A DNA stretch of 64,000 nt, from assembly GCA_040954595.2 (NCBI GenBank), contig CM082585.2, forward strand, positions 634,814 to 698,813. Direction: 5' to 3'. Positions 89 through 51,615 of this stretch are shown here, in pieces. Both the position numbers and the translations under genes were made by a program. This DNA is from Balanoglossus misakiensis. Its lineage: Eukaryota; Animalia; Hemichordata. The notes beneath the pieces are model-generated. The model worked only from the letters and a program-made list of their open reading frames with translations, did not search any database and was not told the DNA's origin. How positions within the stretch are numbered: position 1 is the stretch's first letter; each line of letters begins with the position of its first letter.

Positions 89-322
89 TCAGTCTCCACC
101 ATAGCATTTGCAGAGGGGAGTACATAGTAAATCATTCTTTGAGCAACTGCAACGTCCCCTACAACCTGCTTTGCAGCCACATTTGATAAGCTCTAGTACT
201 GCCTTTGGTGCAGGGAGAGCAAGACATTTTACTGGATAAAACACGCCATTCTCCGATTTCCACCCATTCTTTTCGATTGGTGGAAGTTCAGGACAATTTG
301 TTGCGTATGATTTATCTCTCAT
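89..322 (-). mobile_element. Fragment of an Academ(X)-type transposon protein, C-terminal Cys8/CXC zinc-finger region
   Basis: ORF contains GW...PAPKAVLELIKCGCKAGCRGRCSCSKNDLLCTPLCKC followed by a stop. This is the tail pattern of Academ/CXC-domain TE proteins. No upstream transposase region is visible. Confidence 0.6.
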
Positions 323-880
323 TGTGATGAAGGGGTGGCACCCTTTTCACAGATCACGCAAATCTTATTTTTATCTACATATTAATTCTGTAGTTTATTG
401 CAAAATGTCCTAATAGCTATCGAACTGGAACGTAAAACGCTGCTTACGGTGCTAAGAAAATAGCCAATATGTATTTAGTAATAAAACTGAGATGTAGTTC
501 ACAGACTTGTTTTATTTTCAGTAGTATTGAGCTACAAAATGAGCCAAATTTGATATTGTTAATGTTTACCAAAACAAGTTTTAGAAGTAAGACATAGTTC
601 AAGGGCTTTTTACAGCACTATTTTGCTATTGGCATGAAAATTTTGAAAATACTACTTTAAAATAGACAATACTTCAACTGATATGGCTTTATTTACGACA
701 GTATTTAACTTTGAAATGAGTTCAACTGAATATCGTTTTAATACCCCAAAAAACAAGTGTTGATTAAAACGTACTTCAGAGTTTATGCACAGACTTATAT
801 CGGTGAGAATTTTAGTACAATGGTAAATATCTCAGACATTGATTGTGCTACGAAAGAATAAACAACTCTTAACGAAAAAG

Positions 881-2687: not shown

Positions 2688-3611
2688 GTTTGCGGGCAAT
2701 GCCTGAACGTGATTGGTTCAAATGATGTATCTGTAGTTGTCCGGGTAACAGACATGTGCATTTACCCGTACTGCATGAGTGATGAAGATGGTCTGGTTCT
2801 AAGTCAGGATGCTTACAACATCTTGTCAGATGGTGAAAGTCCTTCATCTCTTCTTGTATCCTACTCAGTTGTTGCCTGTCCTGATGATGTCTCTATCAAG
2901 TTCAAGGTTTGTGAAACAACACAATTATTCACTAATTTAGATACCCTTTTCTTTAATTGCTACTTAAAAGTAAATATTTCCTGTAGTTGTCACATCACTG
3001 CAAAATTGTTTGAAACCTCACTAGCCACATTTTAAATAGTATTTGTAAGATTGAAGTTAAAATTGTCAGGAGTGGTCCATCTGTTTCTTTACTGGAAGTT
3101 TAGATCTCTTGGAAATCAAACCAGTCTCAACTGATTTGGACTAGGGCAGATCCAGTGGGGACTAGGACATTGACAATAATGTGTTGCTCTAATTTCAAAA
3201 TATTATGACCGACTAGGGGCTGTCATTCATTTTTTGAGTGTACCACATTTTGATTGATTGATTTGTTGATTTAGTTTGCAGAGAGCATTTCTGCATCATT
3301 CAGCTTATTAATATTGGATCATCGTTACCCTGTCACCACTGTGGAAGTCCACACAACTGGTCCCTGGATTACTCTAGACAGACTCAGTGATAACTTATTT
3401 GAACCACCCATTGGTTCTGGTGATATACAAGCCCCTCTCAATGTCAAGGTCTATTCGGTGTCTGGTAAAATTAACTACAGGGTTAGAGAGTTTCAGTTTG
3501 GTGAGATTATTGACACCTCCAAGCAATTTCGACATTGTGAGGATGATGAGTTTGAAGTTACTACACTTCCAGACTTTGGAATAGTTACAACAATTGAGAG
3601 TACGCTTGAAG
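2688..3611 (+). CDS. Two exons encoding an expansin-like (EXLX/YoaJ-type) module: DPBB D1 C-terminal part plus CBM63-like D2
   Basis: Exon 2688-2906: VCGQCLNVIGSNDVSVVVRVTDMCIYPYCMSDEDGLVLSQDAYNILSDGESPSSLLVSYSVVACPDDVSIKFK. It splices in phase 0 to 3275-3611: FAESISASFSLLILDHRYPVTTVEVHTTGPWITLDRLSDNLF...APLNVKVYSVSG...IDTSKQF. The motifs follow the order of the expansin motifs CGxC, VxVTD, LDLSxxAF, W/YxxVxCP, NHxYPV, W, NxF, VR/KxT, QF. Confidence 0.8.
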
Positions 3612-4158
3612 GTAAGATGGTTTCATTTTATACAATATGTAATTAGTTTACTGTATAACATAGGTAAATGTTGCTGATGATTTCAATGGAGTGTAGCTGA
3701 ATTTGTTACATTAGTTGTGATATCTGATATTGTGTTTTGCACACCAATATCTGGTACACTCTTATGCAAAATTTTCGCAAGAGGAAATGTTCATGATATC
3801 AAATGTGGCAACTGTTACGTGGCGATTAATTTTCACGTTCTGGTATTTCACTGCATCGTTATCTCTGAAAACCATAAGCGACTTTTTTTTTCACCAGTAA
3901 ATTTATCGTTCGTGAAAATTTCCTATTTTACTGTATTTTGAATAAGAAATCTCAACACCCTCATAAACAATTGCATTAAAGAAAGCAATAGAATAATAAC
4001 ACAATATCATTTGAATCACACACCGGGATGAGAATACCTTGAAATTGTCTCCTGCCAGGAACATTGATTCAATACTGTTCATGTTAGTGGAGAACAATAT
4101 AACATTAGATTTCCTTGTTCTAGATTATTCAAATTGTAATGTTCATTTTTATCAACAG

Positions 4159-5378
4159 ATGAAACAACGCTGGAATATTTAACTAGTCCCTACACCGAAG
4201 GCACAGAAAAAAGCATCTCAACTGATGGATATGCCATAACTTCGCCCAGAATGACAACTGTGTTGGACACAGACAATATACCGGCTGTGACAACTGGAAA
4301 AAGCAAGTCAACCACAACAGTTACTATGGTTACAGTAACCATGCCTGTTGTCGTGACAACAGTAGAGGCAAGTTCTGAAAAGCCTGATCAGCAGTCAAGC
4401 ACAGAAGGTGAGGGTACATACAAGACAACATCTGCTCCGATCTCAAAAACAGAAATGATGTCAACAGCAGAATCTGTGGATATTACTCCTGCAGACCAGA
4501 CTTCAGAGTATGACGATGCAAGTGATGTGATGCCAACAGAGTCATGGACCACACCAGAGAAATTGTTGACAACAAACAAAATGGACGCCACCACACCAGA
4601 GACACTTTTGACAACAAATAAAATGGACGGCACCACAGAATATTGGCAAACGGTAGAAGGCACCACAGAATGGCAAACACAAATGATAACTGATGAAACT
4701 GCCACTTCCCAAAGAAGAACAACAAGAAAACATACAACTGAGGCACCGACAGATCTGTTAACATCAAAAGGTGAATGTGAATTTCTACACTTTTCAGCAT
4801 TATGAGCTCCAAAGTAAGGATGGATCTTGTTTACTTAGTTGACACGACTCTAGCTCCTGGATGACACCATTATTTTTAGGGGGTGAGGGGTGGAAGAAAG
4901 GAGAAAACATATTCACTCCTCACTTTTTTTTCAAAGAAATGTAGGTTTACTTCCTATTATGATAAAGTAAACTATGAATAATAAAACATTGAAAATTTGG
5001 CTTTATTGATAGAAACTTCATGTACGGGTACAGTGAAAATTTCAATTGAAAAAAAAAATTCATAATACCTGCAATGTAAACAGTTAAACAGTTATACATT
5101 GTTAGTTACCATCATCATCGTTGTTTGAATCAGACTCTATGTCACAAATGAGGCAATAACAATGCTCAGTGCAATTGATCTGTATACAGTTGGTCAAATA
5201 ACTCTTCCACTCTTATCATATAGACACCCATGTCCAGTGTGTAATATAAAGTATTCATTCAATTTCATTTATACAGTATATCATGATGTCAGTACTAAAC
5301 CAACTACGAAACCAGCAACAACTCTGAAAGCCACAACAGGTGGTCTTACGACCCTACCAACTCCAACTCAACTACCAG
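4159..5378 (+). CDS. Thr/Ser/Glu-rich mucin-like stalk exons (4159-4770, 5277-5378)
   Basis: Low-complexity Thr-rich reading frame with internal duplications (TTPEKLLTTNKMDA/TTPETLLTTNKMDG; GTTEYWQT/GTTEWQT). Phase-1 splice sites are compatible with the neighbouring exons. Confidence 0.8.
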
Positions 5379-6871
5379 GTAAGAGATATTACCCTTAGTT
5401 TGGTTGATAACGTGTTGTATTTGAGTGATGTCTCAAAGTGTTAAAACATAACATCCAGAAAACTTGTTTTTGGAAGTTAATTTAAATTGCTTGTCACATG
5501 ATAGTTGTGTAAACAATGGTCACACCAAAATGTTCTCCTATATTTACTTTCAGAAAATATATACTTTTAGGGGATTCTCGATAATTAACAGAACTTGATA
5601 ATTAACAGAGAAATGTTTATTTCAAAAAGTGATTTTTTTTTCTTGTATCTTTCATACACACCATGAAGTAATAATACAGTTAAATTTAGAATCAGAATAA
5701 ACCACAAAGAGTTGAACCCATTTATGCTTTGAACAAATTGACCTGAAGAGAATAGGAGTTGTATGGGTCTGTATTTACAATTATTCGATAATTACTTTGC
5801 AGACCGTGACGTTCCTGACTACTGTGCACAGCTTAGTGTGTCATATAATGGTAGTGGGCAGATTACAGACCAGCAATCCTGTGGCAACTACTATGGTACA
5901 GAAATAACAACACAACTTGTTAATGGTTTAACTCAACTCCTGTCTCAAGATCCATCAGGAGCATGTGTTCCTCTTGCTGGTCTGGTTACAATCAATATCG
6001 CATTATCCACCACCAGTCTCACCTCGCTATCGGATAATTCGGTGGGTACTCTAACTGTCTCTTTCAGTCTTGCAGAAAATCTTGTAGACTCTTTCTGGAG
6101 TCTAGAATATTACACTCAACAAATTGTTCACTTCATAGCATTTTATCTCACATGCTCTTCAGATTGCATATCCAAAGAAAAAATGCATATTGGGAGAATA
6201 TTTTCATGCAAATGTGACAACCATGCGATGTTTAATTTTGTCGATACAATCGATCGTAAACTGCTCAGCTGAAACAGTGAGCAGTCATCTTTCTTTTTTG
6301 TTTACGTGCGTTGGAGTGGGGATGTCTTGAAACCATCCGCATAACAGTACATACCTGTACACGGTGAGTTGGGGCGCCTTGAAACTTAAGGCGTATTTAA
6401 CACGCGTTCCGTACGTACCGTTCCGTATGGCTTTTTAGTACACGCTAAATTCTATTGTTCTTGGTGCCAGATGCATAATAATAAAGCATATTAAACATAA
6501 CATCTTTTAAAACAAATGCTTATGACTGTATTTTCATTACCTGCAGCTTTTAATGGATGTGGGGCTGAACTTACTGATTGAACCCATAGACCCATTGAGC
6601 CCTGGATACGACAATGCAGAATTGTCGGGATGTGGTCTTCAACTAATCTTTTATCTGACCAACCATCCAAGTGTATTTCCAGTTTTGGTTGCCATTGACA
6701 GTTCAGACAATTGTCCAGAACTATCATCTTCTGCAAACCCAATTCAAGAAGATGATGCAACATTCTGTTGTCCTGAAGGATATGAGCTCTTCCAGAATGT
6801 CAGATGCAGTATGTATAAAATCATTATTTTTATTCACACTAAAGTGGCGCTTATATCTCTTCTTTTCTTTT

Positions 6872-7160
6872 AAGGATGTACGCGCAGAACATAAACCGGA
6901 AAACTGCACGCACCCGTCTTTTTCCCATAGGATTACATTGATAATTGCTAGAAAACAAACTTCTTCTATTGTCATTGTCACAAAATTTTCTACATAGCTC
7001 AGTCCAGTAAATATAAATTCATTGGTCACTTAAAATATAAGGGTCACCTTGCTCTATTTTGAGATAAATTGCATTAAAAAAAAATTGCCCATAGACAAAC
7101 CATTGGTGAAAAATGCTGAATCAGCAGTTTTCTTCTATTATCGACTAAATTCGTGACTCT
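6872..7160. repeat. Dispersed repeat fragment (second copy about 39127-39380)
   Basis: Both loci share gatgtacgcgcagaac...ttcccatagga...ccatagacaaaccattggt...cagttttctt...tcgactaaattc. Confidence 0.75.
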
Positions 7161-8057
7161 GTAATGTGTATATCATAAACAGGCACGGTCATCAGGTAAA
7201 TGCATGCTATGAGCGGTGTGTTACAAGCATGAATTAAGTATTACTTACAGAAAAAAAATTCTTCTTATTTCAACAGCAGCCGCAGTGGAAGTTGTGAGGA
7301 AAAGAAGGGATGCATCTGAACAGTCATCATTTCTCACTAATGCTAAATGGAATGGCACTGCACCTGTTTGTATTGGTATGTTCATTAGGTCAAAATAAAA
7401 AAATATGTGCTGTTCCAATTACCCGACCTACCCTAATTATAACCCGCTGACCCTACACATTTTAGAGCTTCCTAAACCGGAAGTATAAAAAACAATGTCA
7501 AATATACAAAATTTATGAAAATTGCAAGAATCACGTAAGAATTATGACGTTATTCTTATACACTACGGCGGCCAGAGTAATAAAAAAAATGCAACATAAA
7601 AAAACATTCCCTACCTACCTACCCTATTTTTGAAAACCATGTAATCAGAACAGCACAATTTAGCAATTTATCCGCCAGATTGAGTTCTTGAATGAAATCA
7701 CCAATGTTGGAATTGGATTTTAATGTTTGTTTGTGTTTCATTCTAATTTGATTCTGATTGTGTTTCATTCTGATTTGATTTGATTTGATTTCATGCATTG
7801 TCTGCCTGCTTTCATTTGTGGAAATCACAAAGCTTATAAATGGTCCATCCTCATTGGAGTGGTTGTCAACATCACTGGGAAAAAGGACGATGTTCAACTG
7901 GTTTAGCAATTGGGGTTGTCATGGAGCCACCTACAGAACAGTTCTTCTCCCAGCTGAATTCAAGATTACTATGTCGCTTTAATGGCTGGCAAGTATTGTG
8001 GTTACAAACTTGGCAGATTACAGTCTCATATCTTATGAAATATTTTTTGGCTTGCAG

Positions 8058-8766
8058 ATACCATGCCACCAACTTTAGACTGTCCAGACACGTACATAAT
8101 TCTTGTTGATGAAGTGGAACACAATGTGTCATATCCAGCAGTCTCTGTTGTAGACAACCACGGAATCAGTGACGTCATATATGAACCACCAAATGGAACT
8201 GCAGTTGAAACCAGGAACTACATCACAGTGACTGTTACTGCAACCGATTACAGTGGCAACCAGGCTCAGTGTCAATTTGATGTTTCTGTTCAACGTAAGT
8301 GTTCAGCTAAACTAGCCCACTAGTTGCTTGGTGAATTTTGAATCTCAATACTTTTGTGTGTTTGTGGTGATTTTTTGTCTTTATAATACTTTTTGTGTGC
8401 ATGCTGCTTTGAGCGTTTTTCTGGTACTGAGTTGAGTTTCGAAAATAATGCAAAAAGTGGTGGCAGAGACTTTAAACATTTAGAAGTTAATATGGCATTG
8501 TTTTGAGACATTAGACATTTCACCTTTTAACATCTCATTTTGTTATTCAGCTGATACATGTCCAGAGTGGTCACTACCTACACCAGAAGGTGGACAGAAG
8601 ACTTGCACCCGTGTCATTGGAGGACCACTGGGTTCAGGATTCTCATGTGCATTGTCCTGTCAAGCTGGTTATGATTTCATTCAAGAAATTGATTCACCTG
8701 GAGGAATGTACACCTGCATAATTGGTGGAACATGGCTACCCCATAATTACGTACCTGATTGTGTTG
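8058..8766 (+). CDS. HYR domain exon (8058-8294) and Sushi/CCP-like exon (8551-8766)
   Basis: DTMPPTLDCPD...VSVVDNHG...VTVTATDYSGNQAQCQFDVSV is HYR-like. CPEWSLPTPEGGQKTC...CALSCQAGYDF...YTCIIGGTWLPHNYVPDCV is CCP-like. Confidence 0.85.
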
Positions 8767-10813
8767 GTGTGTATGGGCTTCTACTGATCTATTTTTGCGT
8801 AATTGAAATTCAACTGATATCATATCAATATTCATTAGGCCCCCAAAATAATATGTGAATGCTGATGAAGATAATAAACTTGAAGAACCAAAATAACCAA
8901 CTAATTCAGTGTTACTGTTGGTTCAAATTTTCTCTGATATGTGAGGGAATTTGTGTTTTCCAGTTTGCTATGTGTGCCCTTATATAAACTGATCATTTTA
9001 TAATCAGTCAATACCTACATTTTTATAATCAGTCAATACCTACATTTTTATAATCCGTCTATACCTACATTACCGCATGGAAGATGGCACTAGTCCAGAT
9101 TTGAGTGGATTAGCAAAAATGGGATTTTTTCACCAGCTTAGTAAAGCGAAAACTGGATTGACGATTGACAATTCAACTAGTTGGCCTGAAGTTAAATTCT
9201 CTTCCATATTGATTTTTCCACAGAGAAGGAAGTTCCAGATTATTGCCTGACTGTGGGAGGTGTATACAACTCTGTGATAACCATTCCAAGTGATACCAAC
9301 CAATGTATCTCATATTACGAGTCGAGTCTGCTTGGAATTGTGCAGTCTGTTGAACCACTGTTGTGGGTCCTGTGTAACTCGATTGAAGACAGTGTTGAAG
9401 TTCAAAGTGACTATTCAACAATGGCCATAGTAGACTCCAATCAGGTATTATTATCTGTCCTGCTGGAAAATTTTACAGTTTTACGCTGAAGAAGAAGGTT
9501 GATGTAATCCTTTATTTGATTTCTGTCGTTACATTATTGTACAATGTGTTACCCTAAGGTTGGGTTCTCCAAGGTGTGTCATTTTTAAGAAGCATTATCT
9601 TGTTATTGGAGGGACAAAGTCTCTCGCTCGCTGCCGTTTTCCCATTAATTATGTTTGATACAAGACACAGTTTATGTTATTCTACATGTGGATATATAGT
9701 GAATCATCATTTGACCACACACAACTTCCATCTTGTTTGTAGGATATGAGAGTAAAAACTCGCCCAAAATGAATGAATGGTATTCATTTTTCGCGTGTTT
9801 TTTCACTGTCGCGTCTACAAGAGGATGGAAGTTGTGTGTGGTCAAACATTGATTCTCTATATATCCACATGTAGAATAACATAAACAGTGTCTTGTCATT
9901 GTATCAAACATAATCCCTTTAAATGCTCCATAATAGCTTTATCTTTTTGCTACATTTTCAGTGTGTTTGTTTTGTGTATCTACTGCAGTTTCTTGTTCAA
10001 ATACCTGAAGAATCATAAAATGTTGAGCATTTGGCTTAATATCAACACAACATATATGTGAATGGTCAGCATTGTTATTGTGCAATGGTCAGCATTGTTA
10101 TTGTGCAAAATTTAATTTCAGACTAGAATTCATTTGTCAACAATAACAATGGCTGTTACACGCATACATGATAAGTACTGGGTATAGTAACATGCTGTTT
10201 GGAGAAATAGCGTTTGATACACGGAAGAAAATACTGAAAAAAGCCAAAAGTTACAGCTATGTTGTCCTTTTAACCCATTAAACCAAACTTTCTATTTGGT
10301 GTTTTTCATACCGGTAGGTGAATGCAACAGTTGCCATGAAATTACTTGCAAAGACAGACAACGCAACAAGTTTATATCTCCAAACCTGTGGTGATAGTAT
10401 AATGAGTGCAATTACAACTCAGTTCAGTCAATTCAACAGTCTCATCAAAATCGAGGCAAATGGTGCTTGTCCAGAATTGAATCTGTCAGGAGCCCCAACT
10501 AATGAGTTCTCAGGATGTTGCTGTCCATCTGGAAAGATTCTCAGTGACTGTTATTGTTGTAAGTATCATCAATCCAATATACCTTGAACCAAGAGTCTAA
10601 GTTTATGGTGTCAATTACTTGTCAACTTATAAATATTTTCATCCCAACCCACTAGTGACTTATACTGGTGTACCATATGCTTCGACATATCTCCAAGGCT
10701 TACATGCATATACACCTTACACAACAGCTTATAAACAGCATCATTATCATCACAATTTATCCTGATATAATTGTTCATAGACAGTTGCTCCGAAAAAATG
10801 CATAATTTAATTA

Positions 10814-11003
10814 GTACAGTAAAACCTGTCTAAACTGAACCCTGTTGAATCTGGAAACCTGTCTAAACCAAACACATTGTCCTGTCTCTTCGACATACAT
10901 GTAGAACACCATGTTAAAAGAACGTCTATAAAACCAAACACCTCTGCAAACTGAACAGTTTCTTCAGTCCATTTGGTGTTCAGTTAAGACAATTTTTACT
11001 GTA
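10814..11003. mobile_element. TA-flanked CAGT...ACTG MITE (Tc1/mariner/pogo-like); related copies at 28258-28434 and about 23383-23470
   Basis: Terminal inverted repeats tacagtaaaacctgtctaaactgaac...ttcagttaagacaatttttactgta. Confidence 0.7.
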
Positions 11004-11037
11004 CTGGTATATGTGTCACTTCTGTGCCTTGATGAGT

Positions 11038-11282
11038 TAAAGGGAAGAGGTTGTCCCACCGCGTGGGTGTCCTCCTTGATGAGAATATCTCCTCCAATAC
11101 AAGCACAAACCCCACTGCCGTCATCAAGACCTACTAGGATCTTCAGTTTCTGTCATGCCCAGTCTATGCTGCGGTTGGCTGCTTTGTTATTCATCCTAAG
11201 AATTATCTATTTTCAGAGATTTGTGGATGCATTATAATGTTTATAAACAAACAAATGCGTCGCGATGACCCCTTCACTTTAA
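11038..11282. mobile_element. TTAA-flanked non-autonomous element (Kolobok-like); inverted copy about 27013-27238
   Basis: ttaaagggaagaggttgtccc...gatgaccccttcactttaa. The ORF track shows the shared FINKQxxRDDPFTLN on opposite strands. Confidence 0.7.
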
Positions 11283-11315
11283 ACATCTTTGTCTTTTTAA
11301 TCTGTTACATCGTAG

Positions 11316-12566
11316 TGACGTGTACAGCTGGAACTTATGATACAGGAGATGAATGTGCTAGCTGTCCTGTTGGATCTTATCAAAATTCCGCTGGTCAAAC
11401 ATCATGCATTACCTGTCCATCAGGTTATAGTACACACGATAAACACAGCAAGAGTCAAGATGACTGTATTGGTAAGAGAAATAGTCTATAACAAATACCA
11501 CATCATCTCTGATGAGCTAGCACTGTGACTGACAGACTCGTTTATTTTATTCCACATACGGTTTTGGTAACACGTACAAACGAGATTTTAAAAAAAGCCA
11601 TTACATGAATACTTTGAATTTTACAGATCGCACATCATGCAAACAAGGTGCTTCTGTTGGATGTAATTGTAAAAAGACTGTGTTGCTATTGACTTCTCTA
11701 GATTTCAATCTTTTTATGACGTGATGATTCAAAACTAAATAGTACATGCAGTTTATGAATATATAGTGTTTAAGGTCAAATTGTGATCTTTTTTTAACTT
11801 TTAGAGTTGTGCAAACCTGGCTATTACTCAGATGATGGTAAAGCTCCATGTACACAATGTGTGCAAGGATCTTATCAACCAGATTATGGTTCTACTGATT
11901 GTCATCTGTGCCCAAATGACACGTCAACACACGGGGTAGCAGTTGTAGTAGAGAGTTGCAAAGGTAGGAAGATTATTTTACAATGCCAAGTTTTTATTGG
12001 GCCAAAAAAATAGTATATGCTGTTCCGATTACATGGTTTTCAGAAATAGGGTAGGTAGGTAGGTAAGGATTTTTTTTTATTTTGCGATTTTTTTTAGCTC
12101 TCAATGTGCATTTCACATCAGAAAAAACTATAGTGTAGAAGAATGACATCATAGTCCTGCGTGATGTGCGCGATTTCGTCATAGTTCTCGCATGATTTGC
12201 GCAATTTTCATAAATTTTGTATGTTTGACAACAATGTTTTTTTTTACTTCTGGGTTTACGAAGCTCTAAAAAGTTTAGGGTCAGCAGGTTATAATTAGGG
12301 TAGGTCGGGTAATCGGAACAGCACATATTTTTTATTTTGGCCTCATTTCATCTTTTCCAGGATACAACATCATATTAAAATTTCAATTTGTATTTAACTT
12401 CCAGAAAAATGCACAGTTGGCTCATATTCCAACACTGGTCTTGAGCCATGTGTACTTTGTCCCCGTCACTATTACCAGAATGAGAGTGGTTCCAGAGAAT
12501 GCAACCCATGTCCAACAGGACTGCGTACAACGCATGAAGGTGCCAATAGTTTGGATGACTGTATAG
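11316..12566 (+). CDS. Three exons of ephrin-receptor-like (GCC2/GCC3) Cys-rich repeats
   Basis: CPVGSYQNSAGQTSCITCPSG; CVQGSYQPDYGSTDCHLCP; CPRHYYQNESGSRECNPCPTG. Confidence 0.9.
12000..12343. mobile_element. MITE with GGCC-ended TIRs; further copies about 7388-7660 and 37810-38055
   Basis: ggccaaaa..atatgctgttccgattac...gtaatcggaacagcacatattttttattttggcc, with internal tagggtaggt motifs. Three copies in the window. Confidence 0.8.
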
Positions 12567-12710
12567 GTAGGTACATTTGGCATAAAAATTGAAGGGTTTA
12601 CTTATATATTGATTACATATTCTTTTCCTATTTCTTGAGTTTCTTGCAAAAAAAACACATATTGACCAAATTTGATCATTATGGTTTTATGTTTACATCG
12701 TTTATTTCAG

Positions 12711-18884
<6,174 letters not shown>

Positions 18885-19804: not shown

Positions 19805-22800
19805 AAAAGTCATCCAATTATGATCTCTTCTTCGATGGAGCTGACTCAATGGTTGTCTCACCAACATTTAATTGCAGTCAAGACTTCAGTGTATCACTGT
19901 GGGTCAGATATAGCACCACTGATAAATCAACACCAGGTGTCTATCTTACCATAGCATTGCAAGGATCAAGGTACTCTTTATGTTATTCTTTCTAGTCTGC
20001 AACCAATCTGATTAAAATCAGAAGCCCCCGTTCAACCTCCCGTTGTGGCCAGGCCAATCAGTACAGTTGAAAGTTCCTGCACTAAAAAAATAAATATTAC
20101 AATGAAATGAAATATAATGTCTCGGGAGTTCATTTACTTCCATATGTTCTAGTGGATGAGATAATGCTTTGTTTAGGAATTTCAAAGTGGGAAATGCAAC
20201 GTTTTCTCATTGTATTTTGCATTTTCTCACGGTGGCGACCATATTCCTTTGCGGCGAAGATTTATTATTTGTCTGGTTTAAACTTGCATATGCACTTATA
20301 CTTAGGGTTCATAATACTTGTACATAGTTCAGTGCATACTTCTGTATGGGCTAAAGGTGGTGCAGTTTGAAAAAAGTGTGATAATTTCCCAAAAGTAACA
20401 GCTGATGCACCGATTTATGTCTAATCTCTGTTTTGAATTTCTTGGCAGCTTAACCCAAGTTGATAGTACCCTTCCTTGTCCTGGACAGAAGTCTATCTGT
20501 CAGTACAAATGGTGTAACCGTATCAGTTGATGACAACTCGTGGCATAATGTTGTCATGGTAATTGAAGAAGGCATTGTGGCAGTTTACTTGAATGGTGTT
20601 GCAGTAACATCACCCCTTCCATCCTGGACAGGTATCACTGACTCAGAAAAGTAAGTTGCTAGTGGAACTCCGAACATTTTTAACTCCTACAAAGCCATAG
20701 AAAATTGTCATCATCACATGTTAAAATTCTATATTTTCCTATACTGTCAAGTTTTCCCAAGCCTCAAGAGAAGTGAACCATTTATTTGTGAAGCAGTTAT
20801 CTTGTTTATAACTTATCTGCTAGGTAGCTTGTCTTACTCCTACATGACAATACAATATCATCATAACATGTTGCGACTTACAACAAAACTGGCCAAAAAA
20901 ATCAAGGGAGCAAACTATGGACATCAGCAAAGCTATCTTCGTGGCACTTTCAAATTCAAACTTATGCGGAACGATACTGATTTTCACAGTTTATTTTTGA
21001 CAACTTCTTACCAGCACTTTTAATGAATTCATTATTCTCTTGTTTTTCAACAGCTGTATGGTAATTCTTGGTCAAAGCTATGACGAAAATGGACTCCTTG
21101 ACAACTATTTTAGCTTCCATGGTGATGTTACACAGATGAATGTATACGATTATGTATTGACTCCTGTTGAAATCCAGAGTCTGGCTTTGAACTGTTCACA
21201 AAGTCCACTTGGCAATCATGTCATGTGGGTTGAAATGGATCAAGAGTTATTGGGTAGTGTGGTCAAAATCCAGCCATCAGCTTGTGGAAGTACCAGGTGC
21301 CCAATTGGTTACTCTGGTTCACCATGCACACCTGTTGGTAAATAGCCTTATTCATTACTATCAAACAATTTTATGCATAATCTGACGAGGAGAAATTGGG
21401 TCATATTCACAGAGTTGATTAATCCTAAATCCTTACTTTAACACAGCTCTCCTTGTAATGTTGTGTCTGTCCAGGGAAAACTGTGTGAAATGTTGAGTAG
21501 TTTTTCCTGTGTACATTCACCAGCCCCTAGCTGCTGTGTGTTGTACTCCAATCACACAGCCTGCAATCTCCCTACTTTAGGAAGTATAGGGAATCATCAT
21601 CTGCCCATGCCTGTATCGCTCACTCTTTTTGTTTCTACCGTACATGTATTTAACACTGAATGTAATGATACTATTCACAACCACCACCACCACCATCATC
21701 ATCATAATCATCATCACCACCACCACCACCACCATCATCATCATCATCGTCATCATCATCACCATCATCATCATCAGTTTCTGCTGTTCCAAGAACTAGG
21801 CTTATCATGAGTGTAATTGATCATATCAGTTATTATGCCTATGGATACCATCTCATGACTCCTGTCCTATCTTGTAGTGTTTCTTGACAGTGATCTAGTC
21901 TATTCACATGTATCAGAAAACAAGCTCTTAACAATATCTGGATTTCTCATGAATATGTGACAGATATTAACATCTAGTAGTGCATTTACCTAAATGTACC
22001 AGTGTATGCATAGGGGGTGTGGACCAGTTGTTTAATTTACAAACATTTGTTATTCTTTCACTTTTTTTTCTTCAGATAAACACGCTCCTGAAGTCATTTA
22101 CTGTCCCAATACGACCCGTATAATTAGTCCTAATAGCTTGACAACAGGAGTATGGCAGGAGCCTATATTTACAGATGATGTCGCCATTGCCAATGTGACA
22201 CAAACCTACACAATGGGTAAGTTTCCTATAAAATATCATTTCTGATTATAGATAATATATAACATTCACACTAACTAAGTTTTTTTTTATCGGGGTGGGG
22301 TGGGGAGTTGATCTAAACAGAAACCAACAAGCTGAGACAACTTTCCTAAGATTATGGTCAGTATGAAGCATACTGGTACAGTTTATTCTTGTGGCCGTTA
22401 CTCATATATGGCTAGCACATCCTATGTGCGACAGATGATCTTGCTTCCAAGTATTAAAGCCTCAATTGCTGATACTATTACCATATGTTTATAGGCCCTT
22501 TCCTCGATCCCAGGGCAGTACAATGAAGTTAAAACTCGAAAGCATTTGTGTTTGCACGTAATTGTTTATTGGAAACAAAAGATTTGACCAACTGTTGAGC
22601 AAGGCCTTTAATCAGTAAAGTACTTAATATTCTCCACTACTACTGGGGATACCCATACCACAAATGTTGTGTTCTCTTACAATGGGCAGTTGAATAAACG
22701 TGTGCGGCACCATATCTGTTTAGTATACATATCTTGTTCATGTTTATATGTACAGTCACAATCAGGAGTTGATAATATGCCTGTGTATACCCACCAGATA

Positions 22801-23015
22801 GCTCACTTAAATGGACCATTCTAAGTTTGAAAAGAAAATCATGAAAAACATTCAAGAAACGGAAGCTATTTTGGCTTTAGCACCCATGCCTGTAATGATG
22901 TGCATAATTTTGTTCTTACAGGTGACACCTTTACCTGGGGAACCTACCAGGTCAGCAGTTGCTTCAGATACAGCTGGCAACAATGCACAGTGCAACTTTT
23001 TACTCTATGTACTGC
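19805..23015 (+). CDS. Pentraxin/LamG-like domain exons followed by HYR exons (disrupted)
   Basis: FSVSLWVRY; DDNSWHNVVMV..VYLNG; ILGQSYD..SFHGDVTQMNVYDYVLTPVEIQSLALNC; then DKHAPEVIYCP..WQEPIFTDD..GDTFTWG..ASDTAGNNAQCNF. Probable frameshifts near 20469 and 22955. Confidence 0.88.
21678..21775. repeat. Intronic (CAC/CAT)n compound microsatellite
   Basis: Read directly; lies in the intron 21338-22075. Confidence 0.95.
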
Positions 23016-23671
23016 GTGAGTGAATTTTTTTATCATTCATACATAAACTCTACAAATTAATTAATATCTTGACAAATTGTCATCTCTACCCCTTGTTATG
23101 TCTTGTCACATACTGTAAAACGGGACATTTTCGTGACAGAAAATATTTTGCAATATATCAAAAGAGGCAACTGTGACACGAGAATTAAATTTCCGCATTC
23201 TAGTATTTTACTAACTACTCTGGTATCTCTGAAAAACATTTTATGCGACTTTATTTTCTTCTTCTTTTTTGCCGAAGTTTGGGAAAATTTGCCGTTTTAC
23301 AGTAATATGATTGCATCATTATCACTTTTGTCCATATGTAACTATCAAAAATTATAACAACATCATTCAGAACATACAAGGACACTCAAACCCGTCTAAA
23401 ACAAACCCTGTCTAATCGGGAAACCTCTCTTCAACCAACAGCTTTTCCTAGTCCCTTTTACATAGAAACATGTTAATGTGTTGGTGTTCTGTTTACAAGA
23501 TTTGACTGTGTAATAAATATGGGTGTCACACATACACCATTAAGACAGTTCTGAAGCATCTCAGAATTGATACTGTCTTAAAAAAACATGTGTGGACGGT
23601 GTAAGTGGTCCTGAAACGTCTCAGATTTGAGACGGCTCTGCCAGCCAGACCTGAGCCAGTGTAAGGATTAA

Positions 23672-24657
23672 GGTAGTTGGAAAGGCTATTTTTGAAGCAA
23701 ATTCTCTCAATGTTTGTGAATTTATTTTCACAAGTTAGAATAAAGATAATGACTTGAAATTTGCAGCATGTGTTCTTAACAAACTAAAAAGTGAGGGAAA
23801 AATATGACTGTAAAAATATCTGCTAAAATTATGAAATTTGATACGCCTAAATATAAATATTCATAATTTTACAAAATATTGATTGAATCTTGACATGTTT
23901 TCACAAATTATTGAATAATTTGTATTCATTTTAATATGAAGCAACCCCTCCAGCAATGTATGGGACACTTTCAGCAAAAACTTATTTTTTTCAAAGTTAT
24001 CACTCAGGAAAACACAGTTTTTGTTGATATTTTGTATACAACTTTAACGTGCTGCCAAAACACAACGGGAAAACTTATGAAAAAACTGTCCCGTAAAATT
24101 GTTCTTTGGGATGTCCCGAGCCTTTCCTGAAAGTTTCATAATAAAAAAATTATCTGGCATACCAATTCAATCACAAATAAAAACCATAACATTATGGCGA
24201 AGGGCAGAAAAGTAGCGAAATACGCAAAGTTTAGCGGCAGTTCACGGCGAAGGATCGCATTTATCTGGGTCAAATGCTTTTCCGCTGGCCTTTCGGGTTC
24301 CCTAGAAATGCAAAAATGTCCATAATTTGGCAGCCTTTAATAAACAAGCAAGGTTATCTATCGCTGAAAATTGCAAGAATCAGTGTTTGCAAGTTACATT
24401 TAAATGCCCTTGGCTAGGGGAACCTGTCCTTGTGCGCATAGCCTAGGAGAAGTCTTCCCCTAGAGGGCGCTCAAATAAGGCTCCCTAGCTTCCTTGCCAG
24501 ATGAATGAAATTAGGTATCATAAAACCAGCCATATCTTGTTACACGTTTATTGCCCCGAATTTTTCATGAGTTTAATGTTTCTCTAATACATTTCTAGAT
24601 ATAAATTCAGTGTTTTTAAATGAAATTTTAACTGACGCCCTAGCCTTTCCAACTACC
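23672..24657. mobile_element. 986-bp TTAA-targeting non-autonomous element (Kolobok-like), nested in another repeat
   Basis: TTAA at 23668-23671 and 24658-24661; TIR ggtagttggaaaggcta / tagcctttccaactacc. The host repeat occurs uninterrupted, inverted, at about 47480-47690. Confidence 0.85.
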
Positions 24658-24719
24658 TTAACACCTCTCCGCAACCCATTGTCTATGGGGCCGAGCCTCA
24701 GCGCCCATACATAAACTTT

Positions 24720-25030
24720 GATTGGATGACATTTTGCATTCCTTAGTTGACACACACAAAATGTTATCCAATGACGTGAAGTGTATTACACGGCAGAGAC
24801 TACAATGTGCCAGAAGACAGTTCCAGAGTCATTTATTCAATGTTTTTTAACGAATTTGGCTAATTTGTGGCCGTGTGAAAATATAATCTCACACACCAAA
24901 GACCTGGGATCATATTTCTCACGCTCATCACGGATATTTTGTCCCACACTCGCCTGCGGCTTGTGTGGGACAATAAATCCCCAACTCATGTGAGAAATAT
25001 GATCCCAGGTCCTTGGGGAATGGGAGATTC
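24720..25030. repeat. Hairpin element with leader; second copy about 30270-30587
   Basis: Shared gattggatgaca..aaatgttatcca leader, then hairpin tctcacacacca..gacct.ggatcatatttctcac...gtgagaaatatgatcccaggtccttggggaatg.gaga. Confidence 0.85.
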
Positions 25031-25602
25031 TAGTAATCCCACACTCTGGCAGATTTGAAAGCATTATATGTGCAATACATGGACAGAAACTTCAATGTGC
25101 CAGCAATCTAATTAGTATCAGATGTAGAGTTAGGCGCTTTTGATAGGTTTGGCTATTCTGTTCTCTTAGCTTTGGCTGTTCTGTTCTCTGTCTTGGCAGT
25201 TCTGTTCTCTGTCTTGGCTGTTCTCGGGTGCACGCATCTCTTTCAAACAGAACAGCCAAGAATCAGCGAAAGTAAAGAAGGCGCCTAATTCTACATCTGA
25301 TTTTAATCAGATTGATGTGCCAAGTGACAGTTACACGAGAAGTAGAATCTCAAACACCGAGGAACCTGAAATAAGATTTCTGACACTCAAACTAAAATAT
25401 TGCATCTCACACTCACCTTTGCCCATGAGAAGAAATCTAACACCATATCCTTTGGGATGTATTAGATTCTGTTAATCTCCTACATGGGACGCAAGACCTG
25501 TAATTCATTTTCCATAGCCAACAATGGGAGCTTTGAGCTAAATATTCCTATTTTATAACATTCAGCGAGCCAAATTCCATTGCATGGTTTTATCTTTGAT
25601 GT

Positions 25603-30107: not shown

Positions 30108-30591
30108 GTGAGTATCATTTTGATGCTTATAGGATGATTTTCTTACAATTACTTTGTGCAAATAGGGTGTTCTTACACTGCTGGCATGCTGATAGTGTGG
30201 GATCAGAGTGTGTGAACAAATCGATCCCACACTCTCACTGAATGGGGAAACTGTATATAATGCGAGCGCTGATTGGATGACAAAGCATTCTTTTATTACC
30301 AGGCGCTAAATGTTATCCATTGGCGCAAAGTGTAATACATGGACAGAAACTACAACGTACGAGACGACATTTACAGTCAATTATTCAATGTTTCTAATGC
30401 GAATTATAATTTGGCTTTTTTTTGTCGTGAGAGAAATAGAGTCTCACACACCAAGGACCTAGGATCATATTTCTCACACTCGTCGGGGATATTTTGTCCC
30501 ACACTCGCCTGCGGCTCGTCTGGGACAGAAAATCCCCCACTTGTGTGAGAAATATGATCCCAGGTCCTTGGGGAATGTGAGATTCTATTAA

Positions 30592-34889: not shown

Positions 34890-35434
34890 TTTTAACTAGA
34901 CGGCTGAACTCTGAATGTTGATTCAGCAAAAAAATGTGTTTACGGCAAGGTTTCGATCAATACGACACATTTACCATTGAAAACGCCCAAAGTAAGTGGG
35001 GGCGTTTGACCATCAATCAAAACCACGCCCAGGTGCATGTGAACGGCCGAAGCAGTGTAACGTTTCACATTCCGTGCAACGTCCGACACTGTGTGAAAGC
35101 GGTTGATGTCGGGTGGCTTGACCTAATTTTCGTACATTGATATGCATTTGACACCTCACTACCTGTTTTCTCAATATTGCTAAAACTTTGCGTTGAAATA
35201 TCACTGAAATGTTGATGATCCACGCACAAGTCGTCTACCCCGGCATGAAAAGCGTCTTATACAAGAAAACTAATTGCACATGACCACCAAGGTCATACCG
35301 CAAGGTGTGTCTAAATGTCAAGGAAGGACATTGGGTGGGGGGACTTGGGTCAAGAACGACCATGACGGAGGGAAAACCGACAAGTCATTGTGTAACCTGT
35401 TTACTTGCCAATAGTCGAACGTCAAAATTTACTC

Positions 35435-36716: not shown

Positions 36717-38818
36717 TTTCTGTTTGTTTGTTTTTTTTTACAATAAATATTCAGGGAGTGGTTCAGTGAAACTCAAATATTCTCGTAGCCGATCTGCCTC
36801 CCCGATACGGAGGTCTGCGCTCGTCTGATCACCGATATATACACTAAGAACCCGGTGCGCAGCACTACGCCATGCCGACACGGTCCGTACTAAAACATCA
36901 TTGCTGACATCTCAGTTGTGAAAAAAACGTAATGGGACGACAAATTTCATACATAAATATCACAGATAAACTCCCTGTTCACAAGCGACCGGTTACCCAA
37001 AACTGGCATAACACCGGTACAGTTCCATTCATCATTACCTTTACGGTGATGTAGTGACCTTTGGGCCGTTTTGTACGAAGCGCTCCCATTTTTCTCTCAG
37101 TCCTTTGCTTTTCGGAAATCTATGTACACTATGTACACTACGGATAGTGTTTTTACAGCCCCCGACGACGCATCGTTTGATAATAATGATGGAAACGCGG
37201 GACTCTCGCTTTGGGCTAAGCTGTGCAACGATATCACTGTTTACATACTGGCAATGACTTCCCCCAATGACGTCATGTCACGTGGTCTATACGCGGCAAA
37301 TACGAATTGAGATTTTTTCTGAGGGACATGAATTTCGACGATTTTATTAATGAATCATTAATTATAGAAAACCACAGCCAAAATATAATGTCTTGATTTG
37401 GATAAAATGGTTATTTTACTAAATGAATCTTTTACACTCAAATGAAATAAAAATAGGTGTAATAATTCCTTTAACTGGCTGACTGACTTACTGACTGTCT
37501 GTCAACGTCGGTCTGTCTGACTGTCTGCCCCCTCTCTCTGAGAGAGAGAGTGAGCGAGCGAGCGAGCGACCGATGAGTGTCTCTACTGATGACTGTTGCT
37601 CTGTCTGTCTGCCACTCTGCCTGTTTCACTCTGTCTCTCCTAATTTCTTTAAAATTAGGGATATGCTATTAATGCGATATGAAAGTCAGACACGACGGAA
37701 ACCTTTTATTCTCAAAACTGTCTGTTGTTTGCTGTTAAATATTGCAAAAGGTTAAGGGCCCTTTTCGCACGAGACACATGGCTTTGCAGCCGTAGCTCCC
37801 AGTGTCATAACGATTACCCGAACTACCCTAATTTTAGCCCGCCGACCCAAAACAGTTTAGATCTTCGTAAACCGGAAGTAAAAATAACGATGTCAAATAT
37901 ACAACAATTCATGACAATTGCGAGAATCACGCAAGAACTATGATGTCATTCTTCTACACTACGACGGCCAAAGATATAAAAAATGTTCCTTTCTACCTAC
38001 ACTATTTTTGAAAACCATGTAATCGGAATAGCACATATTAGTTTTTTTTGGCCTGAGACATATCCAATTTCCCAACTGAACATGACACGTGATCAAACAT
38101 TTTCGACTTATCAGATGCAATCGCTGAACACCTCACACTGAGCGAGGTTTTGTCTGTCTTTATACGCGCCCTTTGTATTTGTGCGTGACATGTCCAAGCC
38201 TTGTTAGGATCTCCCGTAAAATTCTACTCAAATGATGTATACTTTCATACTTACGACTGACAGGTATTTTCAGCGTTGCCAGCTGATTGTTTGTCAGGTA
38301 CCGCTTTATAACAAGACGCCCCTCTGAGTTGATAACCTGCAATGTAACATCATTCAATTGGTCTAGTCATGTTAGCATTAGTAAAATGCTTCAAAAGTGT
38401 TAAAGGGACATGATACAAGACACCGTTTATGTTAGTGAATGAACGTTCAACCACACACAACTTCCATCCCGCTTGTATGATACGAGAGTAAAAACTCGCC
38501 CGAAATGAATAAATGGTAGAGACCGTTTATTCATTTTGGCGACTTTTTAAAACTCTCGTGTCTATACAAGCGGAGTGGAAGGTGTGTATGGTTGAACGTT
38601 GATTCACTATATCCACATGTAGAATAATATAAACGCAGTCTTGTATCAAACATAATTAATGGAAAAAGGGCAGCGAGAGAGAGACTTTGTCCCTTTAATG
38701 AATACAGCCACAATGTTCTGTTTATATCTACTGACGGACCAGGCATGGATTGTCACGTATAATTCTTTGAAACGTTTGGTGCTCTGAAGAAATCTGAGCA
38801 CTCATCTACTCAGTTTGC

Positions 38819-40489
38819 TTATTTTGTCTTCCTCCACCAGTCAGTGATATCGTCCGATTTGATACTCCACTCTAAGCCTCTTTCTGAATGGCTCTTTAAG
38901 TTGTGATCTGTAAGTCTTAAACCTTTCATCACCCCCCCCCCCCCCGTTTAGTCCAACATTACCATAGAAAACAATTGGTTTGGACTGAACCATGTTGGTG
39001 AAAGGGCTAGGGTCAATTCAACTTACCTTCTGGACATTCATATTTCACAAAGGGTGTTCCAAACAGTGCTCCAAGATCCAATTGCTGTGACAAAAAAACA
39101 ATAAATTAGCTGCCAGTACACTCAATGATGTACGCGCAGAACGTCAACTGGTAAACTGTGCGCCTGTGTCTCTTCCCATAGGAGTACATGGAGAATAGTT
39201 AGAAAACTCACTTCTACTATTGTCATTTTCATGAAATTTTACACATAGCTCCGACAAATCAAAATAAATTCACCACGCTCTATTTTGAGATAAACTTTGT
39301 TCAATATTGTATCCATAGACAAACCATTGGTAGAAAATGCTGACCGTTAGCAGTTTTCTTCAATTGTCGACTAAATTCACGGCCTTGTTTAAAGTCGAAA
39401 ACAAGTGCAGTGACCCAAAATGGATTTTCATTATACATACAAATCAGAAACGAAAATCCACAATTAAAAGAAATGACAATGCTTTCAATTTTACTGATCG
39501 TACATCCTTAACTCGCTGCCCTTTTCCATGTTTGATACAAAACACCGTTTATGTTAATGTAAATGTGGATATATAGTGATGCAACGTTCAACCGCACCAC
39601 CTTCCATCCCGCATGTAGACACGAGAGCGAAAACTCGCCAAACTGAAAAATCGGTCTCTACCATTTATTCATTTTGGGCGAGTTTTTACTCTCACATCAT
39701 ACAAGCAGGATGGAAGTAGTGTGTGGTTGAACGTTCATTCACTACATATACACATGCCCATTAATATAAACGGTGTCTTGTATCAAACATAATTAATGGA
39801 AAAGGGCGACGAGAGAGAGAGTGTGTCCCTTTAAGGCGACATGATGCATGAAGTGGCGAGAGATAAACGCGGCTGACCACCGCATTAAACACTGTCAAGC
39901 AAGGCACTTCAAATGCCATTGTTTAAGTGTGTACTAAGTAATAGGTTCATGTACCATGTCCTGGGGGGGGGGTCAAATCACAACAGTTGGACATGTACGA
40001 ATATGAAGAGACGATATCAGTTTTTTCATGTCTTCCTTTAGTAAAAAATCTTTTTTGAACTTTGTATAGAATTCATTGAACTTTACTTTAGCTTATGAAC
40101 TCTCATTTGCACATCGTCATCTTGAAATTGTGTCGACTTTATCATAAGGTTTTTATCACTCAACTGGGTCGCAAAACCTATTTAAGTTAGTGAGAATACG
40201 ACGTTCACCTTTTGAGTTGATGGCTACAGCCGTTAATCCTGACTCATACACATGTTGCAGCCAGTATACTCTGCAGACATTGGACACAACATTTTTACGA
40301 ACCATTAAATTCTATTGGACCATCAAGTTTATTGACCCATGACGTTCATATAGATTTTATGACACGACTGACGCTATAATCGGTCCTTACCTTCGGCGAG
40401 CCAAGTGTTTTATAACATCATAAGATATTAATACCTATCACCCAGTCAATCGATTTCAAGGTTATAACATTTCCACGCCAATAGGACGC
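38819..40489 (-). pseudogene. Three phase-compatible 3' exons of an unidentified minus-strand gene
   Basis: Exons 40489-40391 (phase 0-0, one internal TGA), 39084-39027 and 38907-38819, with AG acceptors and GTAAG donors. They read ..CYKTLGSPK|QLDLGALFGTPFVKYECPE|DHNLKSHSERGLEWSIKSDDITDWWRKTK*. Confidence 0.45.
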
Positions 40490-51540: not shown

Positions 51541-51557
51541 TGGTGGAGATGTCGGGG
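51541..51557 (+). promoter_or_regulatory. Primer-binding site complementary to tRNA-Ala 3' end
   Basis: tggtggagatgtcgggg directly after the LTR, versus the recalled tRNA-Ala complement TGGTGGAGATGCCGGGG. Confidence 0.75.
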
Positions 51558-51615
51558 TAGACGAAACAAATCCATCGGAGACAGAAACGGCGACGACCAG
51601 CGGAAAGATTACAGC

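What the first reader, a model, noticed from the sequence alone, without database searches (positions are those of the whole stretch)
2688..3611. Expansin-like two-domain module in an intron-containing animal gene, fused to a mucin stalk and an SVEP1/Uninflatable-like array
Seen: two exons splice in frame to give CGQCLNV-G..VVVRVTDMC..GLVLSQDAY..VSYSVVACP..IKFK|..LILDHRYPVTTVEV..GPWITLDRLSDNLF..PLNVKVYSVSG..DTSKQF, and then splice in phase into the mucin exons and the downstream array. Known (recalled Bacillus EXLX1/YoaJ): ..YLEVEGPKGKTTVYVTDL..ALDLSPNAF..IKWRVVKAP..RNHKYPVMKMEY..GKWINMEKMDYNHF..LKVRMTDIRG..GHVQF. The motifs are colinear over both domains. Expansins are polysaccharide-binding wall-loosening proteins of plants and various microbes and are not a standard animal ECM domain. 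Inference: a possibly horizontally acquired expansin that gained introns and was exon-shuffled onto a large extracellular protein, perhaps as a tethered glycan-binding or sensing module. I do not recognise this architecture from any described protein.
Basis: partly seen in the sequence, partly recalled or inferred. Interest (0 to 1): 0.92.

Follow-up and report, generated by a model that had tools for sequence, protein, structure and literature searches.

The report
Expansin-derived module inside acorn-worm Uninflatable
Acorn worms carry a module derived from expansins, the wall-loosening proteins of plants and microbes, inside their Uninflatable-like cell-surface protein at the spot where insects have a discoidin domain; it lacks the residues that grip and loosen cellulose, so it likely serves as a binding head on a mucin stalk, and the copy in this window is broken as assembled.

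Summary
Confirmed. Exons 2688-2906 and 3275-3611 splice in phase and match consecutive parts of the EXLX1 expansin profile. They run in frame into mucin exons and a colinear Uninflatable (Uif)-like array. Intact homologues are gene models in two acorn worms: Ptychodera (4527 aa, 2 modules, 63% identical to this one) and Saccoglossus (4825 aa, 3 modules). The Ptychodera module folds as a two-domain expansin (TM 0.76-0.80). The modules sit where moth Uif has its second F5/8C (discoidin) domain, and they descend from stand-alone acorn-worm expansins. The fusion is therefore likely older than 373 million years and under constraint. However, 6 of 6 embedded modules lack Asp82, Trp125, Trp126 and Tyr157, which EXLX1 needs to loosen and bind cellulose. 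This is an expansin-derived, repurposed domain rather than a working expansin. The window's copy has five disabling lesions in exons 16-26, lacks the last 600 residues, and has two 5' exons on the opposite strand. No transcript could be checked and no donor lineage was identified. My literature searches found no paper on the fusion.

The parts
2688..2906 (+). Exon 1 of the window: C-terminal two-thirds of expansin domain 1 (double-psi beta-barrel). Asp71 equivalent kept (codon 2751); Asp82 equivalent is Val (codon 2796).
3275..3611 (+). Exon 2: expansin domain 2 (CBM63-like, about 3275-3541) and the start of the stalk. Trp125/Trp126 equivalents are small residues or a gap; Tyr157 equivalent is Asp (codon 3389).
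4159..5378 (+). Exons 3-4 (4159-4770, 5277-5378): Ser/Thr-rich mucin-like stalk; 262 aa with the end of exon 2, 34% S+T, no Cys.
5803..7375 (+). Exons 5-7 (5803-6041, 6547-6808, 7277-7375): a Cys-containing module with no Pfam match (my label 'SEA-like' is recalled), a duplicate of exons 10-11, then a conserved RKRR furin-type site at 7297-7308.
   Evidence: (exon 6 vs exon 11 E 1e-5)
8058..12810 (+). Exons 8-15: HYR, CCP-like, second 'SEA-like' module, three Ephrin_rec_like repeats, first EGF; open and in phase.
14597..18884 (+). Exons 16-21: EGF array with a frameshift near 14680, Cys-to-Tyr at 15264, a stop at 15441 with no usable donor, and TGA in place of Cys at 16893.
19805..23015 (+). 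Exons 22-26: LamG/pentraxin, EGF and HYR, with frameshifts near 20475 and 22957. Homology to the intact homologue ends at 23015 (Ptychodera residue 3909 of 4527).
38255..38336 (-). 5' exon of a Uif-like gene (start of the C-type-lectin region), 81% identical to Ptychodera 46-72, on the opposite strand.
39027..39084 (-). 5' exon of a Uif-like gene (first residues after the presumed signal peptide), 83% identical to Ptychodera 24-46, on the opposite strand.

Best explanation
The two exons encode an expansin-fold module that acorn worms carry inside a Uninflatable-like membrane protein in place of the insect F5/8C domain; it lacks the cellulose-gripping and loosening residues, so it likely acts as a non-catalytic binding head held out on a mucin stalk. 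Shown here: expansin homology and, on the Ptychodera orthologue, the predicted fold; position of the insert; loss of Asp82, Trp125, Trp126 and Tyr157 equivalents; conservation on a par with neighbouring domains. Inferred history: an early acorn-worm ancestor acquired a microbial-type expansin, which became a small family of secreted or tethered proteins. One copy was shuffled into Uif before the Saccoglossus-Ptychodera split and then changed in number (3, 2, and at least 1 here). Inferred mechanism: Uif is an apical single-pass protein, so the O-glycosylated stalks would space the acidic modules into the mucus or apical matrix, where they would bind an animal glycan or protein partner rather than cellulose. 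The conserved RKRR/RRRR site behind the insert would allow the lectin-CUB-CCP-expansin part to be cut from the membrane-anchored part. The window's own copy is most likely a recently disabled, rearranged copy.
For: Profile, PDB and shuffle tests. AlphaFold model of Ptychodera module 1 (63% identical to the window): pLDDT 86, Foldseek top 12 hits all expansins, TM 0.66-0.80 (0.76-0.80 for the microbial ones), VIA Z 18-20 for five expansins against 11 for the next. Ptychodera and Saccoglossus proteins align with moth Uif in three colinear blocks whose gaps coincide with the two F5/8C domains; 1554 and 1867 residues lie between the half CCP and the HYR, against 211 in the moth. Moth Uif has no hit to the expansin profile. 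Key residues: Asp82 is V or A in 6 of 6 embedded modules and D in 36 of 36 bacterial ones; Trp126 0 of 6 vs 36 of 36; Tyr157 0 of 6 vs 36 of 36; Trp125 0 of 6 vs 33 of 36; stand-alone Ptychodera P0002 module 2 keeps D, Y/W and Y. Roles of these residues: passages of PMC5072189. Constraint: window-Ptychodera identity 62% in the module vs 63-69% in four other regions; 7 of 7 shared Cys/Trp kept. Split date 373 Ma: passages of PMC4729200. Uif as apical membrane protein with two FA58C domains: passages of PMC3340373 and PMC12867482.
Against: No ligand, expression or splicing data. The window's copy cannot make the full protein as assembled. An older Saccoglossus model (P0008, 3097 aa) skips the whole expansin insert, so the insert may be alternatively spliced or model-dependent. 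Only one outgroup lineage (moths and butterflies) was retrieved, so 'replacement' of F5/8C rests on insects alone. Loss of canonical residues does not exclude binding of another polysaccharide: Asp71 and the disulphide Cys are kept in 6 of 6. The fold was predicted for the orthologue with an alignment mostly of bacterial expansins, which leans the model toward that fold; the window's exon 2 folded alone gave pLDDT 37.
Confidence: 0.6

Rival explanations
1. The module still binds an environmental polysaccharide (algal glucan, chitin or peptidoglycan) through a remodelled surface, and Uif uses it as a tethered food-capture or microbe-sensing head in mucociliary feeding.
For: It sits where insects have a putative carbohydrate-binding domain. 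Asp71, the Cys pairs and the HRYP and R-x-S-x-N-x-F motifs are kept. Acorn-worm pharynx secretes mucins for particle capture (PMC4729200 passage). EXLX1 binds peptidoglycan as well as cellulose (PMC5072189 passage).
Against: All three domain-2 aromatics and Asp82 are gone in 6 of 6 modules. The modules are acidic (pI 4.0-4.6), unlike the basic EXLX1 that binds acidic wall polymers electrostatically. Stand-alone paralogues that keep the residues are better candidates for this job.
Confidence: 0.22
2. The module has no ligand; it is a rigid, disulphide-locked spacer that breaks up long mucin stalks.
For: Most positions conserved across the six modules look like core residues (Cys, Val/Ile, Gly, Pro). 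Copy number varies from 1 to 3.
Against: 62% identity to Ptychodera module 1 but only 38% to module 2 suggests distinct, maintained surfaces. Several polar positions are invariant and differ from bacteria.
Confidence: 0.13
3. On the state of this locus: exons 1-15 still work as a shortened, secreted expansin-mucin protein and only the part behind the first frameshift is decaying.
For: All five lesions lie in exons 16-26; the chance that the first of five random lesions falls this late is 0.008, or 0.017 without the mucin exons (test chosen after seeing the data). Shared Cys/Trp lost: 0 of 60 in front, 4 of 81 behind, Fisher p 0.14.
Against: Two 5' exons of a Uif-like gene lie on the opposite strand at 38-39 kb, which suggests an inversion that cut the gene from its start. 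The back part shows no excess of replacements (55 on the window's branch vs 66 on Ptychodera's, p 0.36), so decay is at most very recent. The neighbouring CRAL-TRIO gene piece also has an in-frame stop.
Confidence: 0.2
4. On the state of this locus: the lesions and the inversion are assembly errors and the gene is intact in the animal.
For: Three of five lesions are small indels; no excess of amino-acid change; the region is rich in repeats.
Against: A TGA at a conserved Cys, a Cys-to-Tyr change and a lost donor site are not typical indel errors, and the last 600 residues are missing from the 41 kb downstream.
Confidence: 0.2

Closest known systems
Microbial expansins EXLX1 (Bacillus subtilis YoaJ 2bh0/3d30, Clavibacter 4jcw, Streptomyces 9ms5, Talaromyces 7wvr; NCBIfam NF041144)
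   Same: Two-domain order, profile match over both domains, predicted fold (TM 0.76-0.80, rmsd about 3 A), Asp71, Cys pattern, HRYP motif.
   Different: No Asp82, Trp125, Trp126, Tyr157 or Thr12 equivalent; intron-split; embedded in a 4500-4800 aa animal membrane protein. Fusions listed in the passages read (10.1101/637728, PMC5072189) are to GH5, CBM1, CBM2, CBM32/discoidin, dockerin or chitin-binding domains.
Insect Uninflatable (Uif; moth protein XP_022825719.1, cluster members named uif)
   Same: End-to-end colinear at about 31% identity in three blocks; CUB x3, CCP, EGF, HYR, Ephrin_rec_like x7, LamG and a C-terminal hydrophobic segment in the same order.
   Different: Both F5/8C domains and one HYR are absent; a 1.5-1.9 thousand residue insert of mucin, expansin modules, a duplicated Cys-containing module and a furin-type site replaces the second F5/8C.
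Stand-alone acorn-worm expansins (Saccoglossus APU50764.1 'expansin-yoaj protein-like protein 170', XP_006812919.2, XP_006812521.1; Ptychodera XP_070533744.1)
   Same: Same family; all 12 acorn-worm modules lie on one side of a 100/100 branch against 36 bacterial modules.
   Different: Short two-module proteins; some modules keep Asp82 and the aromatics. They are database names only in what I could search.
Nematode expansin-like proteins
   Same: Animal genes with expansin-type domains, described as acquired from bacteria (passage).
   Different: Domain order reversed (passage of 10.1101/637728); plant-parasitism effectors; not fused to an animal matrix protein. No nematode sequence was compared here.
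SVEP1
   Same: Shares Ephrin_rec_like, HYR, CCP, EGF and pentraxin domains (SVEP1 layout recalled); databases give Uif this name.
   Different: No vWA domain found by Pfam in the acorn-worm proteins; they begin with the Uif-type lectin-CUB block and end in a membrane segment.

Membership tests
Expansin (EXLX1 type) | Domain 1 (DPBB) followed directly by domain 2 (CBM63) | tested here: met
   Exons match NF041144 positions 39-109 and 118-193 in order; the first ~45 residues lie outside the window but are present in the orthologues (1633-1822 of P0009 covers 5-194).
Expansin (EXLX1 type) | Score above the curated profile cut-off | tested here: inconclusive
   Single exons score 29 and 26 bits (cut-off 100). 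Whole proteins P0009 (131, two modules) and P0001 (222, three modules) pass only by summing modules; Pfam Expansin_C not hit in either.
Expansin (EXLX1 type) | Two-domain expansin fold | tested here: met
   Predicted for Ptychodera module 1, not for the window's own peptide: pLDDT 86, TM 0.76-0.80, Z 18-20.
Expansin (EXLX1 type) | Asp82 required for wall loosening | tested here: not met
   Val or Ala in 6 of 6 embedded modules; Asp in 36 of 36 bacterial (numbering through).
Expansin (EXLX1 type) | Aromatic platform Trp125, Trp126, Tyr157 for cellulose binding | tested here: not met
   0 of 6 at each position.
Expansin (EXLX1 type) | Asp71 in domain 1 | tested here: met
   Asp in 6 of 6.
Expansin (EXLX1 type) | Thr12 motif at the start of domain 1 | tested here: not met
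   Ile or Val in 5 of 5 orthologous modules; region absent from the window. The alignment is loose here.
Expansin (EXLX1 type) | Cell-wall creep or filter-paper weakening without hydrolysis | not testable with these tools
   Needs recombinant protein.
Uninflatable | Colinear lectin-LDLa-CUB-CCP-EGF-HYR-Ephrin_rec_like-EGF-LamG-HYR-EGF-membrane layout | tested here: met
   Three colinear blastp blocks (E 3e-114, 3e-31, 0) for P0009 against moth Uif. Pfam did not list Lectin_C or LDLa for the acorn-worm proteins at E<=0.01, though the block covers them. Window exons follow P0009 1664-3909 in order.
Uninflatable | Two F5/8C (FA58C) domains and three HYR domains | tested here: not met
   No F5/8C and two HYR stretches in P0001 and P0009, against two and three in the moth.
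Uninflatable | One-to-one orthology (no second, canonical Uif in acorn worms) | tested here: inconclusive
   A word-based search with residues 2800-3330 returned 4 proteins of 1300 scored: two Saccoglossus models, one Ptychodera cluster, one lepidopteran cluster. No tree of Uif was built.
Uninflatable | Apical localisation, Notch interaction | not testable with these tools
   Known for Drosophila only.
SVEP1 | N-terminal vWA domain (recalled) | tested here: not met
   No vWA family in Pfam scans of P0001 and P0009 at E<=0.01.

The most novel reading that the evidence does not exclude
A microbial expansin entered the acorn-worm lineage more than 373 million years ago, founded a genuine animal expansin family, and displaced a discoidin domain in the conserved apical protein Uninflatable, where a re-engineered surface now binds mucus or microbial glycans: a horizontally acquired domain built into a core developmental receptor, shed by furin cleavage.
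Probability: 0.3. Interest if true: 0.85.

Novelty: new variant of a known kind. Interest (0 to 1): 0.66.

Why it matters
A survey of expansins (10.1101/637728, passages read) left open whether the few animal expansins are real genes or contamination. An intron-split module, spliced in phase into an animal gene and conserved across acorn-worm families, answers that for one phylum. It is also a clean case of a microbial-type domain taking the place of a native domain in a conserved developmental protein. It gives a natural pair for biochemistry: stand-alone paralogues that keep the active residues and embedded copies that lost them. The limits: the function is untested, the donor unknown, the range seen so far is acorn worms only, and this window's copy is broken, so the intact Ptychodera and Saccoglossus genes are the ones to study.

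Tried and rejected
The ESM Atlas did not complete. Word-index searches with exon 2 and exon 1 among proteins up to 2000 aa found nothing (0 of 151 and 0 of 71 candidates); the true homologues exceed that length. Folding exon 2 alone failed (pLDDT 37). An apparent frameshift and stop in exon 10 was my wrong donor; the donor at 9445 removes it. The CAG acceptor at 3281 was rejected for exon 2 because it is out of phase. No exon for the first part of domain 1, no signal-peptide exon and no exon for Ptychodera 71-1290 or 3910-4527 (beyond repeat cross-matches) was found in the window. A metagenome scan gave 3 short matches among 145 stretches; none is an expansin or Uif by my profile. A Pfam Expansin_C genome search rang nowhere, controls included, so it was uninformative. 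Relative-rate tests did not separate front from back (Fisher p 0.10). Rows left out: L007 (partial; in the profile, not in the tree), L014 (internal stop), L003 and L008 (duplicates); 4 of 50 plasmid hits were fetched. The bacterial set was picked by likeness to a Saccoglossus module and 33 of 37 come from one phylum. Literature: 10 searches; expansin+Saccoglossus and expansin+hemichordate each listed one unrelated paper; none of the 30 listed of 114 held 'expansin'; PMC4729200 main text and its 2 held supplements have 0 occurrences. Subscription papers and the bioRxiv supplement of 10.1101/637728 (Table 3, metazoan expansins) could not be seen and may list acorn-worm entries. No complex prediction was run: no partner is claimed.

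Full report
1. The observation. Exon 2688-2906 (73 codons, phase 0/0) and exon 3275-3611 (phase 0/1) have canonical sites. The in-phase acceptor is the TTTAG ending at 3274; the CAG at 3281 is out of phase. The next exon, 4159-4770, is phase 1/1. Exons 1-15 (2688-12810) join into 1120 codons with no stop. Each exon alone hits one NCBIfam family, expansin_EXLX1, at consecutive positions 39-109 and 118-193 of 194 (E 4.4e-7 and 4.9e-6). PDB sequence searches agree weakly and Pfam is below cut-off. The spliced 185-aa peptide scores 50.9 bits on a profile of 37 bacterial modules, against a best of 6.2 for 2000 shuffles. The first ~45 residues of domain 1 are not in the window.

2. What it belongs to. 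A full HMMER search of 1.84 billion representatives with domain 2 gave 4 hits at E<=0.001, all from acorn worms. The best is a 4825-aa Saccoglossus model (XP_077862127.1) with three modules. A search with its downstream region added the Ptychodera model XP_070567428.1 (4527 aa; three isoform records, of which I read one) and a lepidopteran cluster whose members are named uif. The window's exons follow the Ptychodera protein in order from residue 1664 to 3909 at 62-69% identity by region. The source is therefore very likely an acorn worm closer to Ptychodera than to Saccoglossus (inference). The window's module matches Ptychodera module 1 (63%) rather than module 2 (38%); no second module lies between it and the downstream array. 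An AlphaFold model of Ptychodera module 1 (37-row alignment, pLDDT 86) has expansins as all 12 Foldseek hits at E<=0.001 (TM 0.76-0.80 for microbial ones) and as the top five VIA hits (Z 18-20; next 11).

3. Where the module sits. Both acorn-worm proteins align with moth Uif in three colinear blocks at about 31% identity. The gaps coincide with the moth's two F5/8C domains. At the first site there is a plain gap (43 residues against 194). At the second, right after the same half CCP domain, 1554 and 1867 residues lie before the HYR domain, against 211 in the moth. The insert holds mucin stalks (34-45% Ser+Thr), the expansin modules, a duplicate of a later Cys-containing module and an RKRR/RRRR site present in all three species. 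Drosophila Uif is an apical single-pass protein with two FA58C domains described as putative carbohydrate binders (passages of PMC3340373 and PMC12867482). The direction of the swap rests on insects as the only outgroup.

4. Origin. Acorn worms also have short two-module expansins, one deposited as 'expansin-yoaj protein-like'. Their best modules are 43-44% identical to bacterial ones and pass the EXLX1 cut-off. In a 48-row tree the 12 acorn-worm modules are separated from 36 bacterial ones (100/100), and the six embedded modules form one group (99/92) nested among the stand-alone ones (midpoint root, several long branches). The Uif module thus came from the animal's own family, likely before the 373 Ma split (PMC4729200 passages). 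The donor is open: no eukaryotic expansins were in the tree, and a fungal and a Streptomyces expansin score almost equally against the stand-alone module.

5. How it likely works. EXLX1 needs Asp82 to loosen walls and Trp125, Trp126 and Tyr157 to bind cellulose (passages of PMC5072189). Mapped through the alignment, all four are absent from 6 of 6 embedded modules, while 33-36 of 36 bacterial modules keep them and stand-alone Ptychodera module 2 keeps Asp and three aromatics. Asp71, the Cys pairs and the fold motifs remain, and the module is as conserved as the neighbouring regions. So it is maintained, but not as a canonical expansin. The most likely role is a non-catalytic binding head spaced by glycosylated stalks in the apical matrix or mucus and releasable at the furin-type site (inferred, 0.6). 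Rivals are binding of environmental polysaccharide through a new surface (0.22) or a ligand-free spacer (0.13).

6. State of this copy. Against Ptychodera, exons 16-26 carry frameshifts near 14680, 20475 and 22957, a stop with a lost donor at 15441 and TGA for Cys at 16893. Nothing matches the last 600 residues, membrane segment included, in the 41 kb downstream. Two 5' exons of a Uif-like gene lie on the minus strand at 39084-39027 and 38336-38255, as an inversion inside the gene would leave them. A CRAL-TRIO gene piece with its own stop and many transposons lie between. The window's branch shows no excess of replacements, so any decay is recent. I put a recently disabled copy at about 0.6, a shortened working front part at 0.2 (lesions cluster behind exon 15, P 0.008-0.017, post hoc) and assembly error at 0.2. 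Against the fusion itself, an older Saccoglossus model skips the insert, and no reads were available.

7. Novelty. The survey 10.1101/637728 (passages) names Oikopleura and bivalves as animals with annotated expansins of unconfirmed status, and lists only carbohydrate-active fusions. Ten searches found no paper on acorn-worm expansins or on this fusion (listings only unless named above), and PMC4729200 with its two held supplements never uses the word. The architecture exists in databases as 'uncharacterized protein'. Verdict: a real, apparently undescribed variant of Uif with an expansin-derived domain; function untested; interest 0.66.

Noticed in passing
window 25600-30108 (+): Five exons of a CRAL-TRIO/BCH-domain gene (Pfam CRAL_TRIO_2 E 1e-17 and 3e-5; the name GDAP2-like is recalled). 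The first has no clear acceptor and a stop at 25750; no upstream exons were evident in 23020-25600.
   Followed up: partly
window 51019-57677 (+): Young LTR retrotransposon: 521-bp LTRs 99.4% identical, gag-pol ORF 51781-55311 and integrase-chromodomain ORF 55271-56782 in another frame; flanked by an 83% inverted repeat (49754-50966 / 58868-60093).
   Followed up: partly
window 41829-42371: A lone LTR copy of that element (98% identical, opposite strand) lies between two reverse-transcriptase ORFs at 40899-41825 and 42333-43262.
   Followed up: partly
window 32038-34900 (-): Broken DDE transposase (Pfam DDE_Tnp_1_7 E 4e-34 at 33779-34201), piggyBac-like by recall, with an AT-rich insert at 33000-33770.
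   Followed up: partly
P0004 (Saccoglossus XP_006812521.1): A second tethered form: two degenerate expansin modules, a mucin stalk and a C-terminal hydrophobic segment; sister to the Uif-embedded modules in the tree (98/89) and a possible source of the shuffled cassette. Pfam misses it; NCBIfam passes it.
   Followed up: partly
P0002, P0005 (stand-alone acorn-worm expansins): Tandem two-module proteins in which the second module keeps most functional residues and the first has lost more; P0005 ends in a hydrophobic tail that might be a GPI signal (not tested).
   Followed up: partly
L001-L034: Expansins are common in one bacterial order (30 of 277 genomes searched), some in tandem pairs and some in ORFs of 900-1100 aa.
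   Followed up: no
window 89-346 (-): Cys-rich ORF resembling the CXC-type end of a transposon protein (recalled); no Pfam match.
   Followed up: partly
window 21675-21775: CAC/CAT microsatellite in an intron.
   Followed up: no
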